Assembly (NCBI RefSeq): GCF_006345805.1
Contig: NC_043003.1
Location: forward strand, 18,910,001-18,974,000
DNA length: 64,000 nucleotides
Direction of reading: 5' to 3'
Source: Octopus sinensis
Lineage: Eukaryota
Shown here: piece by piece, positions 9,031-58,733 of the stretch
Numbering within the stretch: position 1 is the stretch's first letter
Layout: every line of letters begins with the position of its first letter
Translations under genes and position numbers: made by a program
Notes under the pieces: model-generated
Told to the model about the DNA's origin: nothing
Seen by the model: only the letters and a program-made list of their open reading frames with translations
Database searches by the model: none

Positions 9031-9395
9031 AAGTAGCTTGCTTCCAAACCACATGGTTCCGGGTTCAGTCCCACTGCGTGGCACCTTGGGTAAATGTCTT
9101 CTATAGCCTCGGGCTCACCACAAAGCCTTGTGAGTGGATTTGGTAGACGGAAACTGAAAGAAGCCCGTTGTATATATGTATGTATATATGTTTGTGTGTC
9201 TGTGTTTGTCCCCCCAACATCGCTTGACAACCGATGCTGGTGTGTTTACGTCCCTGTAACTTAGCGGTTCAGCAAAAGAGACCGATAGAATAAGTACTAG
9301 GCTTACAAAGAATATGTCAATTTGCTCGACTAAAGGTAGTGCTCCAGCATGGCCACAGTCAAATGACCGAAACAAATAAAAGAGTAAAAAGAGTA
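9031..9395 (+). mobile_element. SINE family A
   Basis: Same consensus, 5' end slightly truncated. Confidence 0.9.
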
Positions 9396-18408: not shown

Positions 18409-18839
18409 AATAATCCTTGAATGGAATTTATAAACATTTAATGCATTGCTATGTGCACTTCCACAAATCACATGATTCTTAAGATCTCTATTTATATTCC
18501 TGGGATGAATGGTGTAGTCTGTTGTAGCCATGGGCATCTGGTTCACCATCATCTTTGATTCATTCTTTCAGGCGATATGCCATTAGCGGATGTACCACTG
18601 AGGGATGTTTATCCCATTTTTACCTGTAAAAAGGGATAAACATCCCTCTGTGGTACATCCGCTAATGGTATATCACCTGAAGAAATGAATCAATGATGAT
18701 GGTCAACCAGATGCCCATGGCTACAACAGACTACACCATTCATCCCAGGAATATAGATTGTGATCTTAAGAATCATGTGATTTATGGAAGCGTACATAGC
18801 AATGGATTAAATGCTTATAAATTCCATTCAAGGATTATT
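18409..18839. repeat. Fold-back inverted repeat, ~210-bp arms, tiny loop
   Basis: aataatccttgaatggaatttataa.. pairs with ..ttataaattccattcaaggattatt; centre ttttac-ct-gtaaaa at ~18624. Confidence 0.92.
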
Positions 18840-44266: not shown

Positions 44267-45489
44267 AATACCCTAAACACCAAGCCATGCGCCTCCACTG
44301 TAGAAGTATTACCAGTTTATTGCACATAATTTTTAACCACAAAATCTTATGGACCCACAAGGGTCTCATCAATCGAGAACCACAGGACTAAACCTTTCAA
44401 AGCAGTACCCTGGCATGGCTGCAGTCCAATGACTGAAACCTGTAAAAACAAAATGAAAAAGAAATATAGACAGAAGAGTTCATTAAAAACACTTTTTTTA
44501 AAAATGCATTCTGGTTCTTTGGTTTTCTTGGTAATTAAGACTTACATAGTATATAAAGATGTATAAATATATTTATTAAGCGTAGTATAGCTAATAATGA
44601 AGCTAATGACACCAATGTTCTTTTAATGAGATTTTCATTTTAACGATAAGTGATGAGAAAATAGAACCTGATAAAAATTGACTGACAATGATAATGCTGA
44701 GTATGTTAAGAAGAAAAGAGCAAATAATGAAGAACATCAAGTGAAAGATAGATGATGACAGTAATACTAACACTGACAGTATGGATGACGATTATGATGA
44801 TAATAAATTATAATAAGGCTTAATTAGATAATGATAGCTATAAAATTTTGTTATTTTTATTGTCAGAGGTAATAGCTTTTTAACTATGGCAACTATGTTG
44901 ATTATGATGAATCTGTTAAAAAGTAATTTAGTAATTGTAAAAAAGGAAATTTAAAAAAAAATTATTATTATCCTGATTATTTCAGGTGGCTAATTGTTTC
45001 AGGAAAATTCCATAATAATAATAATAATAATAATAATTTCAAAACCATATCAACTTATTTGACAAATTTAAAAATATATTTTTTTTCCTTTTTAAAAATT
45101 TTTTGTTGGTAATTAAATTGGTTTAATTCGTTTAATGATCTCTCTGTTCCCCACTCTCACCCCATTCCACATTCTTCATTGTTCAATATTTTAAAGGTCA
45201 TCCTTGTTTTTTTTGTTTTGTTTTTTCTTTCTTTCATATAAGCACAACACTTTCAGAGTTATCATTGGATTGAAAGATGGATAGGCCTGTCTAATAGTTC
45301 ATTGATTTCTGCTTTTTTGTATTTATATACATACGTATGTATATGTATATACATGCTTATTGTATGTGATTGCAAAGTCATACATACAGGTTGAATGCAG
45401 TCAGTATTACGCATTTATTAAAAGACAAAAACTTGAAAAAAAATTCACTATATGCATTTTTTTATGCATGTATATATATATGGAGGCGC

Positions 45490-45831
45490 CTACCTCAGTA
45501 AAGCTGGACTCAAGAGTTATCTTCGTAATCATAAAACGAGACAGATGAGTGACAACCTGGCCACTGGTGGTGGTGTAACACACCATACTAATCATATCTG
45601 TCGGGCATGTGGAAGAGAGTATAATTCGACAGGAGGACTTAAACGACATGCAAAGGTACATGAAGTCCAGTTACAACTACAGCCGACTATTACCAGTAAA
45701 GGTTTTAGTTGCCAATTCTGTACAAGACATTGTAGATCCTTAGCTGGGCTAAAACGTCACATTCGATCGCAGCACCAGTAACAGTTAAGCTTCGTGCAAT
45801 GGCCATACTCGATAACGTGGGGGCAGCCATA
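45490..45831 (+). mobile_element. 5'-truncated LINE (RTE-like) 3' end encoding C2H2 zinc fingers
   Basis: Open frame with one partial and two complete C2H2 fingers (CRAC..HAKVH, CQFC..HIRSQH*), ~50-nt 3' UTR, 12-bp TSD atatggaggcgc (45478-45489, 45832-45843). Confidence 0.8.
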
Positions 45832-54318: not shown

Positions 54319-54781
54319 GTTTATGTGTGGGAACATTTAATTATGCTTGTATGTATCTTTTACCATTTACTTGTTTCAGTCATTTGACTGTGGCCATGCT
54401 GGGGCACCACCCTGAACAATTTTTGGTCAAATGAATCGATTAAAGTACTCATGTTTTTTTTAAGCTCGGTACTTATTCTATCAGTCTCTTTTGCTGAACT
54501 GCTAAGTTACAGGGATGTAAATATACCAACATCAGTTGTCAAGTGGTCGTAGTAGGGGTCAAACACAGATACATAATCACACATATATTCTTTTACTTGA
54601 CTGTGGCCATGCTGGAGCACCACCTTTAGTTGAGCAAATCGACCCTAGGACTTATTCTTTGTAAGCCTAGTACTTATTCTATTGGACTCTTTTTGCCGAA
54701 CTGCTAAGTTACAGGGACATAAACACACTAACATCAGTTGTCAAGCGATGGTGAGGGGACAAACACAGACACAAAAAACAA

Positions 54782-54843
<62 letters not shown>

Positions 54844-54997
54844 CATATATATATAGAACAAGGCTTCTTTCAGTTTCCATCTACCAAATCTACTCACAAG
54901 GCTTTGGTTGGCCCAAGGCTATAGTACAAGACACTTGCCCAAGGTGCCACGCAGTGGGACTGAACCTGGAACCATGTGGTTGGGAAGCAAGCTTCTT

Positions 54998-55459
54998 TAT
55001 TTCAGTACATTTGCCATAAAGGCAGTACATAGAGTAAAGTAGCTTTGCAGGCTGGACAAGGACATTAATGAAATGAATGGTAATGAAAGAAAGATGATAA
55101 GGATGGGAGAAGACAAAAAGCGCCTGCTTCTCTAAAACATTGTTCTTTAAAACCAATCACAAAACGAGGTACAACTTTTACAACTTTTCAATTTTTGGAC
55201 TTAACAGTCCATTACAAACAACAACATAGTTCAATAATTACATATAATATAAATACAATACACAAAGCCCCTCCTCCCAGACCTGGCTTACACTTACCTT
55301 AGGAATGCGCCAGCTCTAGGTCGGGGCCCCTCAAGTTGTATCTAAACATGTCCTTTGAGGTGTTCATTACCCTGACCATAGCAACATCCGATATGATCTT
55401 CGTAGTCACCTGCGAAGGCCACTCCTCATCCCCCATCCAGGGCATGGGCTCCTCCCTCC
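54998..55459 (-). mobile_element. 5'-truncated retroelement, diverged sibling of 55476-57553
   Basis: 16-bp TSD gggaagcaagcttctt (54982-54997, 55460-55475); ORF end ..EPMPWMGDEEWPSQVTTKII..FRYNLRGPDLELAHS* (stop 55299-55301); ends in AATAAA at the junction. Confidence 0.8.
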
Positions 55460-55475
55460 GGGAAGCAAGCTTCTT

Positions 55476-57553
55476 TATTTTATCAAATTAGCCATGGAGA
55501 CCTTACACTTACATAAAAATCAACAAGTCAATCAAACATAAAAAATACACTATCACTTTTCCCTTCCTCCTCTTTCCGGACCTCCAGTCAAATATCTAGC
55601 TGCCTGTAGAGCAGACCACGTTGACAGCTGGGGAGTTCAGAAAGAAAGCGAAGTGCCTATTATCAAATGTTTGTGTCACACAGTGCCACAATTTATAACT
55701 CACCCTCAAAATAACTTGTGCCCGCATCCTCTGCCATCCTCCACGCCTCTTTCAAAGCCGAATCGAGTTCCGTGTCAGCATTGCCCAGGTACAAGCGATA
55801 TTCCTCATTGAGCCCCTTCAGCCCAAACGTCACGTCAAACGTTATGGCCTCCACAGCTATCTGAGAAGGCTATTCGGGGTCCTGTGTGAAGGCTAAAGGT
55901 GCTCCCTTATGGTGCTTTTCCATCTCCTTTTCAATTTCTCCGCCTTTATAGAAGAAGATCAATACATCATCTTCCTCTGGGGGCGGGATACCCAATTATT
56001 TCATTGGTGGCACAGTTCCCACCAACGGTGTTTCTTCTCCTGCCAGTAGCACAACCCCAACCGACGTTATTCCGGGACATTCCGGTACTATGTCCCGTTT
56101 CTCTTCCTCTTCCTCTTTTTTTCTTTTCAACAGAGGGAGGGTGCGTCTCCTCCGTGGCCGGAAGATTCGCCTTCATTCCTCATCCCTAGGATCATTCGGT
56201 GAGCACCCATTGTTGCTCACCTTCTTCCTCTTACGGCCCCTGTTTGAGGAGTCCTCTGCTTCCTCGGCCGCCTTCATTCCCTCTTCTACAGGGGTCTCAC
56301 TCAACTGCTCCGGGACCTTATTTTGTTCCCGGGGACAGTTTTTCTTTATATGGCCAGACTCCAGGCACCGATGACACCTGGGGGGGAAACCCTCAAGTAT
56401 CACTGGGTACCTGCACCCAGCCATTTAAAAAAAATCTGGAAAAACCAGATTGGCTGATTGGGTCCAAAGGGTCAAAACAGCTTTTGACCCAACCCAATCA
56501 GCCACAGGAAGAACTTTCACATTAAGAAGCTTGGTCCCGCTGCCACCCAGACCCCGGCGGATAGTCTCCTCTATCCACTTGGGTTTTATCCCGGGTGGCA
56601 ACCCGCAGACCTAAGCTTTCATCAACCTCTTTCCATAATACATGGGAAGGAACAAAATTTCCTCACCCTCCAAGGGTTGACTAGCAAATTTGTGAGCCTC
56701 TTCAGGGGTATCAAATAGCAACCAAACCGTTGCATATCTGAAACCCCTGGAAATTAATTTAATTGTTGGCAAATACTCTGCCAACTTCTTTTCAATTGCC
56801 GTCTTTTCGAATAGGGCGATGGTGTTGAGTGACTTGGAGTAGGTTCTCAACACCACTGTCCTATCTTCATGGTCTTTCAACCACTTTTTAGGCGGTATAA
56901 TCTCCCACTCCAAAATTTTGTCTTTTTTCATTGCCATGTTTCTTTTTTTTTTTTTTGAAATATATTCAAAATAAAACTTAAAAAGCGAGAAGAAAAAAGA
57001 AATCAAAAGAAAGTCACAATAAACAAAAAGGAGAAAGTCAAATAAAGTTTAGAAGAAAGTCAATAGCTCAGGAACACAGCAAAAAAATCTTCCGGCCATT
57101 TGGTACTCCCGGCCTAGGTTGAACCCGGAATGCCACAACTGGAACACAACTTCCACAAAAATTGATATACAAATTGTTCAATCTTCGGAGGCAAAACACT
57201 CCCCCAAACAGCAGTTCTCACAATTATTAAAGTTCTTCAAAAGGCACAATACAAGCAATAATTCTCATAATTAAGTGAGAAAAACATAAACCGAAGACGA
57301 ATACATCCCCAAACAAAAATTCTCACAATTCAGTGAGAAAAATTATTTGCCCCATGTCGGCAGAACTAGAATTCTGAATCCAGTAGGACTTCCTGCCTGT
57401 ACAAAAACAATTCTCAACAAAAATTCCCACTGGACCCAAAAAACAGAATCTTACCTTACAATGGAGCTTCAAAATTTTTCAATTCGAGACGGCTTCAAAA
57501 GCATATCTCACCTCTTTGGTGCCGAACACCACAATTATTCGCACATACGCAGT
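55476..57553 (-). mobile_element. ~2.1-kb ORF1-only non-LTR element (Tx1/L1-like ORF1)
   Basis: 15-bp TSD (55461-55475, 57554-57568), ~615-nt 5' UTR, single disrupted ORF, ~215-nt 3' UTR ending AATAAA; no EN or RT sequence seen. Confidence 0.8.
55693..56937 (-). pseudogene. Disrupted gag-like ORF1: RRM-like N-terminus, CCHC knuckle, unknown C-terminal domain
   Basis: MAMKKDK..VWLLFDTPEEA..*VCGLPPGI.., CHRCLESGHIKKNC (56335-56376); in-frame stops at ~56612, ~56426 and ~55871, plus frameshifts between 56180 and 55990. Confidence 0.8.
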
Positions 57554-57606
57554 GGAAGCAAGCTTCTTACCACACAGCCACCCCTGCACCTATATACATA
57601 CAAGTG

Positions 57607-57820
57607 AAGGTGGCAAGCTGGCAGAAACGTTAGAATGCTGGGCAAAATGCTTAGTGGTATTTCATCTGTCTTTACATTCTGAGTTCAAATTCCGCCTAGG
57701 TTGACTTTGCCTTTCATCCTTTCAGAGTCGATAAATTAAGTATCAGTTGCATACTGGGGTCAATCTAATCGACTGGCCTCCCTCCCCAAATATTTTGGGC
57801 CTTCTGCCTAGAGTAGAAAA
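57607..57820 (+). mobile_element. SINE family B
   Basis: Family consensus. Confidence 0.85.
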
Positions 57821-58733
57821 GTATATACATACAAGTGTCTTTCAGTTTCCATCAACCAAATTCACTCAGAAGTCTTTGGTCAACCTGAGGCTACAGTAGA
57901 AGACACACACCTGCCCAAGGTACCAGACAGTGAGACTGAACCTGGAGCCATGTGGTTGGGAAGCAAGCTTCTTACCACACAGCCAGTTTCTCCCTTTATG
58001 GTATGTGTATATTTCTGAAAGTGCTTGCATGTCTGTGTGTGTGATTGCCTCTGGTACCAAAATACATTGTCACCAAAACATATTGAATGTCCAATCGGCC
58101 ATACCAAATCATCACCATCCTAACATCTATATCCGATCCTCTCATTCCAACCAGACCATCTGTGGAGTTAATTTGGTTAAGGAATTTTTATGGCAGAGGC
58201 CTTTGAAGTTTTGTTGACGTTAAATGAAACGACATTGCTTTCACTGAAGGTCTGATAGGTATAAACCTTTGGTGACTGGCATATGGGTGCTAGTTTCAAG
58301 TAGCTCTGCTCTATAGAAGCTATACCTGCTTGTGATTACTGAGGAAGGCGAGAAAATCAAGGTGATTGCTAGTAAGGAGTTTCGTTCCTGTTGGTATGTG
58401 GAACAAGAATGTGGTCAGACAAATGGATCTTTTTGGAGACAAGACACATTGTAGTGGGTCCCCTTAGATTGGAATAAATTTCTGGAGAGAGAGAGAGAGA
58501 CAGAGAGACAGAGAGAAAGAGAGACAGAGACAGAGACAGAGAAAGAGGTGGCAATTCACAGGCAGAGTCCACCTCAGTTTCTTCTAATTATTTCAGAGAA
58601 ATAGTCAAATGATTATTTTCTTAAAGTCATTTATATATTCTTCAACTACATCACAAACTAAATCCACTCTTTAGAGACAATAACATCAGAAGATGATGCG
58701 AAAAAAAGGATTTTGATCTATTTAATGTTTTCC

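What the first reader, a model, noticed from the sequence alone, without database searches (positions are those of the whole stretch)
55299..56937. ORF1-only family with a conserved, unrecognised C-terminal motif shared by both stacked inserts
Seen: the long insert looks complete (5' UTR, ORF, 3' UTR, TSD), yet its only ORF stops ~215 nt from the 3' end, leaving no room for EN/RT. Its C-terminus APLAFTQDPE*PSQIAVEAI..YRLYLGNADTEL (TAG probably from TGG) aligns with the short insert's EPMPWMGDEEWPSQVTTKII..FRYNLRGPDLEL although the DNA is very different. Both 3' UTRs contain gtaagtgtaag and have similar last ~30 nt. Inference: this is an old, diversified lineage of RT-less gag-like elements (analogous to HAL1 or HeT-A), not a one-off deletion, and the P[LM]x[FW]xxDxEWPSQ motif has been conserved at protein level.
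Basis: partly seen in the sequence, partly recalled or inferred. Interest (0 to 1): 0.8.

Follow-up and report, generated by a model that had tools for sequence, protein, structure and literature searches.

The report
Octopus half-LINE stacked inside a SINE
Two retrotransposon inserts sit stacked at one spot inside an octopus-type SINE; the complete-looking one encodes only a decayed RNA-binding ORF1 protein, so it likely borrowed a partner's reverse transcriptase, but whether it forms a family is untested.

Summary
The anatomy is real. A ~390-nt SINE is split at one site by two minus-strand inserts (2,078 and ~462 nt), bounded by three identical 15-bp target copies. The long insert has a 616-nt 5' UTR, one 414-codon ORF with five internal stops and a 217-nt 3' UTR, leaving no room for endonuclease or RT. 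The ORF is a type I LINE ORF1 (two predicted RRMs, one CCHC knuckle) of a cephalopod family; it is 68% identical to an Octopus sinensis protein. The two C-terminal peptides align modestly (15/48; shuffle p about 0.001-0.009). The last 32 nt match 22/32 in register. The shared GTAAGTGTAAG is out of register and near chance. Best reading (0.55): ORF1-only, non-autonomous derivatives of a target-specific Tx1-like LINE, mobilised in trans, working like HAL1, HeT-A or TRE5-A.2. Not settled: no related DNA could be reached, so family status and ORF2 linkage are untested. Neither peptide scores against the C-terminal domain of distant ORF1 homologs, so the motif could be an ORF2 tail fused in frame. 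Verdict: a likely new variant of a known kind.

The parts
54597..54997 (-). Host SINE, body and 3' part of the head (interrupted copy of a ~380-400-nt family)
   Evidence: blastn to another window copy, 75% over 401 columns; 36 hits of this family cover 7,511 of 64,000 nt
54982..54997 (.). Target copy 1 (16 bp shared with copy 2; 15-bp core shared by all three)
   Evidence: (D4)
54998..55298 (-). 3' UTR of the short insert (301 nt); the last ~32 nt resemble the long insert's end and are predicted to fold a hairpin
   Evidence: (48 nt, -8.4 kcal/mol, z -2.3)
55299..55460 (-). Last 53 codons and stop of an ORF in the 5'-truncated short insert (P0002)
55460..55475 (.). Target copy 2, sandwiched between the inserts
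55476..55692 (-). 3' UTR of the long insert (217 nt), no poly(A) tail
   Evidence: no RT/EN-sized frame
55693..55983 (-). C-terminal ~95 codons of the long ORF holding the shared motif; no family assigned
55984..56331 (-). Low-complexity E/K/R-rich linker, with two stops and possible compensating frameshifts
56332..56379 (-). CCHC zinc knuckle (residues 187-202)
   Evidence: Pfam zf-CCHC E 0.017, below the curated cut-off; the knuckle residues are conserved across the family
56380..56937 (-). N-terminal part of ORF1: two predicted RRM domains
   Evidence: 68% identical to P0003; model of P0003 has mean pLDDT 80.8; Foldseek hits are tandem-RRM proteins; atlas neighbours are RRM/CCHC and ZCCHC3-type clusters
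56938..57553 (-). 5' UTR of the long insert (616 nt, 41% T) with degenerate 58- and ~105-nt spaced subrepeats
   Evidence: (D3, D5, D6)
57554..57568 (.). Target copy 3
57569..57590 (-). 5' end of the host SINE head
   Evidence: 94% over 34 nt to another copy

Best explanation
The long insert is a TSD-bounded element that encodes a decayed type I ORF1 and no ORF2, and it is likely a copy of a non-autonomous, ORF1-only derivative of a target-specific Tx1-like LINE, with the short insert likely the 5'-truncated end of a second, diverged element of the same build. Shown: one SINE split at one site, three identical 15-bp target copies, ORF1 then a 217-nt UTR, similar last ~32 nt, and a modest C-terminal peptide match. 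Inferred mechanism: (1) the element's RNA makes ORF1p, which coats its own transcript through the two RRMs and the knuckle; (2) an APE-RT protein from an autonomous partner elsewhere in the genome recognises the conserved 3' end; (3) it nicks the SINE head at CTTCTT/AC on the window's + strand and primes reverse transcription directly at the element's AT-rich end, with no tail; (4) a second nick 15-16 nt away gives the duplication; (5) the site is regenerated and hit again, giving the stack. The order of the two events is not fixed by the TSDs; short-first is favoured if the nuclease needs the native SINE flank. The shared motif would be part of the small C-terminal domain that octopod ORF1s carry behind their linker.
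For: Anatomy. ORF1 identity: two-RRM model plus knuckle; type I is defined as RRM(s) then CCHC (PMC4120745 passages). Five distant homologs share their own C-terminal domain behind the same linker: leave-one-out 0 of 500 shuffles for each of 4 tested, and P0033 0 of 1000. The window ORF runs 218 residues past the knuckle, against 225-298 in P0006, P0023, P0024, P0039 and P0008, so its length fits an ORF1 alone. 0 of 48 phmmer hits have a best stretch beyond query residue 310, where ORF2 tails might have appeared. If the peptide match is real and ORF1's own, both diverged inserts lack ORF2, which two separate accidents would hardly give. The nick resembles the L1 consensus 5'-TTTT/AA (PMC1950540 passages). 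A partner class exists: O. vulgaris has 13 recently active L1-Tx1 families, 421 insertions, 2,288,644 bp, about 5.4 kb each by my division (PMC13282606 Table 1). Precedent for tandem inserts sandwiching a TSD in a Tx1 target: SINEU-3 (PMC4494074 passages).
Against: No second copy was seen. The window's two peptides do not score against the homologs' C-terminal profile (93 and 99 of 1000 shuffles; hhalign probability 0.3%). Pairwise, the best of 6 comparisons of the long ORF's C-terminus with homologs is 49 of 1000 (P0006). The peptide match itself is modest. The long insert's 3' hairpin is no more stable than shuffles (z +0.4). A type I ORF1 occurs in many clades, so 'Tx1-like' rests on target behaviour, not on an RT. 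Site specificity rests on one locus.
Confidence: 0.55

Rival explanations
1. The shared motif is the tail of ORF2. The short insert is an ordinary 5'-truncated autonomous Tx1-like LINE, and the long insert is an internally deleted copy in which ORF1's front was joined in frame to the last ~95 codons of ORF2 (a family or a single event).
For: Neither peptide fits the ORF1 homologs' C-terminal profile. P0003 ends at 281 residues and its tail matches another frame of the window weakly, so the linker's continuity is unsure. Short 5'-truncated LINE copies normally end in ORF2 plus 3' UTR (established knowledge). An in-frame join has a 1-in-3 prior.
Against: ORF length past the knuckle fits intact ORF1 homologs. 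The last 95 residues hold no Cys and match no Pfam family. No hit to this part among 48 phmmer hits or among 311 candidates of 169-2000 aa (which the tool calls weak evidence).
Confidence: 0.25
2. The peptide match is chance. The long insert is an ORF1-retaining deletion product (possibly one-off), and the short insert is a related Tx1-like 3' end that shares only the terminal recognition signal and the target.
For: Raw score 41; 27 of 3000 shuffles reach it against the whole ORF. The second half of the alignment needs gaps. The 11-mer is near chance.
Against: The match falls in the last coding stretch of both inserts (3 of 3000 there). The first 20 codons align without gaps, with third-position changes at 4 of 7 identical residues and TAG facing TGG.
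Confidence: 0.15
3. The stack arose in one integration: the RT jumped end-to-end from the short RNA to the long RNA, whose 3' end carried read-through target sequence. The middle target copy would then come from RNA, and strict site specificity is not needed.
For: Both inserts end without a tail, directly on the target, as expected if transcripts run on into the target. Only one locus was seen.
Against: It needs two diverged RNAs at one nick and a template ending exactly at the TSD boundary. Sequential insertion is the published reading of the same build.
Confidence: 0.05

Closest known systems
ORF1-present bipartite non-autonomous LINEs: HAL1 (L1 clade), HeT-A (Jockey), Ag-Sponge (CR1) (PMC5786205 passages; PMC5753468 passages)
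   Same: 5' UTR, ORF1 and 3' end with no ORF2; needs a partner's RT.
   Different: Type I ORF1 (two RRMs, one CCHC) rather than the mammalian type II; cephalopod; sits at a fixed site in a SINE; no poly(A). The passage read lists no Tx1-derived example.
Dictyostelium TRE5-A.2 (PMC3159450 passages)
   Same: ORF1 kept, ORF2 largely deleted, mobilised in trans; a short 3'-terminal segment is essential; targeting relates to Pol III genes.
   Different: TRE5-A inserts ~50 bp upstream of tRNA genes through ORF1p-TFIIIB contact. Here the inserts lie inside the SINE head at one nucleotide, which suggests sequence recognition.
Tx1 clade target-specific LINEs: Tx1L in Tx1D, Keno in U2, Tx1-Mar and SINEU-3 in Mariner-N4_AMi (PMC4494074 passages)
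   Same: Insertion into another repeat at a fixed site; 16-nt TSD reported for SINEU-3; tandem copies sandwiching a TSD; RRM/CCHC ORF1s are consistent with Tx1 (PMC5203782 passages).
   Different: The target is a SINE head. The passenger keeps ORF1 instead of being non-coding. No RT is present to place it in the clade.
ZCCHC3-type and other RRM-RRM-CCHC proteins
   Same: Same predicted domain set in the N-terminal 200 residues; feature scores 0.87-0.92.
   Different: These are fold-level neighbours; the window ORF lies in a TSD-bounded insert and is decayed.

Membership tests
ORF1-only non-autonomous LINE (HAL1/HeT-A/Ag-Sponge kind) | Element between TSDs encodes ORF1 and no EN/RT | tested here: met
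ORF1-only non-autonomous LINE (HAL1/HeT-A/Ag-Sponge kind) | Many copies share the same ORF1/3' UTR junction (amplified as a unit) | not testable with these tools
   No genome held; 3 of 3 answered locus scans empty
ORF1-only non-autonomous LINE (HAL1/HeT-A/Ag-Sponge kind) | Shares 5'/3' ends or target with an autonomous partner | not testable with these tools
   No partner sequence reachable; the two inserts share their last ~32 nt
ORF1-only non-autonomous LINE (HAL1/HeT-A/Ag-Sponge kind) | ORF1 kept under purifying selection in the source lineage | tested here: inconclusive
   68% identity to P0003 over 257 columns, but no DNA for dN/dS; only 20 codon pairs between the inserts
HAL1 proper | Derived from mammalian L1 with type II (Transposase_22) ORF1 | tested here: not met
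   No such Pfam match; fold is tandem RRM plus CCHC
HeT-A | Jockey-derived; head-to-tail arrays at chromosome ends | tested here: not met
   Interstitial, inside a SINE, with TSDs; one knuckle, whereas Jockey ORF1s have three
Tx1 clade | RT/APE phylogeny groups with Tx1 | not testable with these tools
   No ORF2 in either insert; none in 21 other window ORFs scanned
Tx1 clade | Target-specific insertion (over 20% of copies in one flank type, the criterion in PMC4494074) | tested here: inconclusive
   2 of 2 inserts at one site, but one locus only
Tx1 clade | RRM/CCHC-type ORF1 | tested here: met
   not exclusive to Tx1
tRNA-derived SINE (host) | Head homologous to a tRNA | tested here: inconclusive
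   ARAGORN found 0 genes; no Rfam tRNA match. Likeness to Pol III A and B boxes is by eye against a recalled consensus.
LTR retroelement / gag remnant | Terminal direct repeats, 4-6-bp TSD | tested here: not met
   No long terminal repeat in 54800-58100; TSD is 15-16 bp

The most novel reading that the evidence does not exclude
Octopuses host several old, diverged families of ORF1-only Tx1 derivatives that parasitise an autonomous Tx1 and home to one nucleotide in the head of a very abundant SINE: a three-tier parasitism that disables SINE promoters. Their ORF1p keeps a fast-evolving, uncatalogued C-terminal domain needed to recruit the partner's ORF2p or to find the target.
Probability: 0.35. 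Interest if true: 0.65.

Novelty: new variant of a known kind. Interest (0 to 1): 0.42.

Why it matters
If it holds up, it adds a target-specific, Tx1-like case to the short list of LINE derivatives that keep ORF1 while dropping ORF2. It would give a natural test of why ORF1 is kept: packaging in cis, recruiting the partner, or choosing the target as in TRE5-A. A LINE that homes to a SINE head would use a very abundant safe harbour (this SINE covers about 12% of the window) and would likely inactivate each copy it hits. If the ORF2-tail rival is right, what remains is an ordinary but apparently undescribed SINE-targeting LINE family. Not found in 8 full-text searches. Repbase, Dfam and the Zenodo library of PMC13282606 could not be consulted and may already hold it.

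Tried and rejected
No whole genome is held. Locus scans found nothing: metagenomes with alignment A1 (131 pattern matches, 0 confirmed) and with P0003 (595, 0); viral contigs with P0003 (146, 0). Two alignments were too diverged to give patterns. The search for longer, ORF2-fused forms scored none of 8000 candidates and missed its own known positives over 523 aa (P0008, P0021, P0024, P0033, P0039), so it says nothing. The C-terminal pair found 0 of 311 candidates. Sequencing runs: 20 of 24 listed rows in 10 studies and 4 organism labels hold part of the long insert (best share 0.45); no RNA holder is listed; none was laid, so this is not used as evidence. A model of a homolog's C-terminal domain failed (P0039, pLDDT mostly under 50 there). 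Atlas search of that domain: no usable hit. P0002 against PDB sequences: 0 at E up to 10. Rfam and ARAGORN gave nothing relevant. TRF found only a 10-nt unit in the 5' UTR. Earlier scan findings: nothing in 4 look-ups. Rejected: the GTAAGTGTAAG argument; LTR/gag remnant; HAL1 or HeT-A membership. By-eye likenesses to recalled Tx1 ORF2 tails could be forced in several frames and were given no weight. A beta-alpha-beta-beta-alpha reading of the C-terminal domain is by eye only and is unsupported. The original HAL1 paper is not held. Supplements of PMC4494074 could not be read and may bear on Tx1 targets.

Full report
Setting. The window is AT-rich animal DNA, dense in one ~380-400-nt SINE family (36 blastn hits covering 7,511 nt). 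Protein relatives place it in an octopus. No whole genome is held.

Anatomy. One SINE copy on the minus strand is split: body at 54597-54997, first ~22 nt at 57569-57590. The 15-mer GGAAGCAAGCTTCTT stands three times, identical, at 54983, 55461 and 57554; copies 1 and 2 share a 16th base. Between them lie a ~462-nt and a 2,078-nt insert, both in the SINE's orientation. The long one has a 616-nt T-rich 5' UTR with degenerate subrepeats, an ORF of 414 codons (56937-55693) with stops at codons 109, 171, 255, 314 and 356, and 217 nt of 3' UTR. The short one holds 53 codons, a stop and 301 nt. Neither has a poly(A) tail; both end directly on the target. Of 19 other SINE heads listed, 18 keep recognisable, partly decayed head sequence 5' of this site and one (9031) breaks at the same nucleotide. 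Only one of them carries the exact 15-mer.

The ORF. It is 68% identical over 257 columns to an O. sinensis protein, P0003, and 87% over 46 residues to a piece inside a second gene model, P0004. phmmer gave 48 hits. 32 were looked up; 15 carry a species name, all cephalopods (O. sinensis 5, O. vulgaris 4, O. bimaculoides 4, Argonauta 1, Sepia 1); 17 have none and 16 were not looked up. Pfam found no endonuclease or RT family in the 25 hits scanned; P0004 carries an integrase piece. A model of P0003 (26 sequences, mean pLDDT 80.8) shows two RRM-type repeats. Foldseek's listed matches are tandem-RRM proteins, best E 3e-5, with low TM-scores of 0.2-0.3. The atlas returns RRM/CCHC and ZCCHC3-type clusters. 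This is a type I ORF1, which occurs in several clades (PMC4120745 passages; PMC5203782 passages). In a tree of 27 core domains the window ORF pairs with P0003 (100/100) on a long stem of 1.95 changes per column, at 21-34% identity to the rest: an old, distinct lineage.

The shared motif. The two peptides align at 15/48. Shuffles reach the score 3 of 3000 times against the last 100 residues and 27 of 3000 against the whole ORF. The first 20 codons align without gaps at 34/60 nt; 4 of 7 identical residues differ at the third base, and TAG faces TGG. I take the homology as likely but not proven. Whose C-terminus it is matters more. Distant homologs do carry a shared C-terminal domain behind the same linker: each of 4 left-out sequences beats all 500 shuffles, and P0033 beats all 1000 (P0021 22, P0014 56 and P0031 802 of 1000). 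The window ORF runs 218 residues past the knuckle against 225-298 in five octopod-type homologs. But the window's peptides score no better than 93 and 99 of 1000 shuffles against that profile, and the fold attempt on P0039 failed in that region. So 'ORF1's own domain' is inferred from position and length, and an in-frame ORF2 tail is not excluded. Against the tail: no phmmer hit reaches past residue 310 (0 of 48), and the targeted search found 0 of 311 (weak).

The 3' ends. The last 32 nt match 22/32 in register (0 of 20000 shuffles). Without the last five bases, which could belong to the duplication if the short insert came second, it is 17/27 (3 of 20000). Both 48-nt ends fold a 4-bp stem with a 5-nt loop in the same place, but only the short one beats shuffles (7 of 200 against 127 of 200), and the hairpin is lost in the long one's 80-nt fold. 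GTAAGTGTAAG is out of register and near chance (107 of 3000).

Mechanism. Target-primed reverse transcription in trans is inferred. The junctions put the priming nick at CTTCTT/AC, a relaxed form of L1's 5'-TTTT/AA (PMC1950540 passages), with the second nick 15-16 nt away. Most target-specific LINEs with an APE nuclease are Tx1 or R1 (PMC4640811 passages). Tx1 families target other transposons, and tandem SINEU-3 copies sandwiching a TSD are read as sequential insertions (PMC4494074 passages). O. vulgaris has 80 L1-Tx1 families, 13 recently active (PMC13282606: parts 1-2 of 3 of the text and a search of its one supplement); what I read there does not discuss targets or ORF1-only forms. Tail-less, identical 3' junctions would fit priming on read-through target RNA; this is untested. 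The order of the two insertions cannot be read from the TSDs.

What could not be done. The decisive test, whether close copies carry ORF2 and whether this junction recurs, needs cephalopod DNA. Three answered locus scans were empty, the fused-form search failed its own positives, and no reads were laid. Family status therefore rests on indirect argument: if both inserts end in ORF1, two diverged elements lack ORF2.

Comparison and novelty. It works like HAL1, HeT-A, Ag-Sponge (PMC5786205 passages) and TRE5-A.2 (PMC3159450 passages), but is not a member of HAL1 or HeT-A. Tx1 membership cannot be tested without an RT. Eight full-text searches (listings only, except the papers cited here) showed no report of an ORF1-only Tx1 derivative or of a LINE targeting a SINE head in cephalopods. 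Subscription papers, Repbase and Dfam were not searchable. Passages of PMC5753468, PMC4758252, PMC8967140, PMC3747384, PMC11203168, PMC13534243 and PMC8869645 were also read and added context only.

Verdict. Observation partly confirmed; interpretation partly supported; likely a new variant of a known kind; interest 0.42.

Noticed in passing
window 9031-9395 (+): Another SINE copy loses its 5' part at the same nucleotide as the stacked inserts; no TSD was seen by eye. It could be a third event at this site or a chance 5' truncation.
   Followed up: partly
window 57545-57553 (-): The first 7 nt of the long insert, with the two target bases before them, equal a 9-nt word lying about 25 nt downstream in the SINE head; possible microhomology at the 5' junction.
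   Followed up: no
SINE heads across the window: Heads come in variants at the target (AAGAAG versus AAGTAG, among others); the occupied copy is of the AAGAAG type, which gives the more L1-like nick word.
   Followed up: partly
window 55291-55302 (-): The short insert's stop is followed by AG/GTAAGT, which resembles a 5' splice site (recalled consensus), within three TAAG repeats.
   Followed up: no
window 45437-45781 (+): Frame with C2H2 zinc fingers (Pfam zf-C2H2_4, E 5.4e-8), probably an exon or remnant of a host zinc-finger gene.
   Followed up: no
P0021 and P0033 clusters: Distant ORF1 homologs of about 800-860 aa lie on unnamed contigs of up to 5,720 and 6,159 bp, sizes that would fit ORF1 plus ORF2; the contigs could not be fetched.
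   Followed up: partly
P0004: An O. sinensis gene model fuses 46 residues of this ORF1's start to an integrase piece, probably a chimeric annotation across nested repeats.
   Followed up: no
window 18570-18679: A long hairpin that scores below threshold on both strands against miRNA models; likely a palindromic repeat.
   Followed up: no
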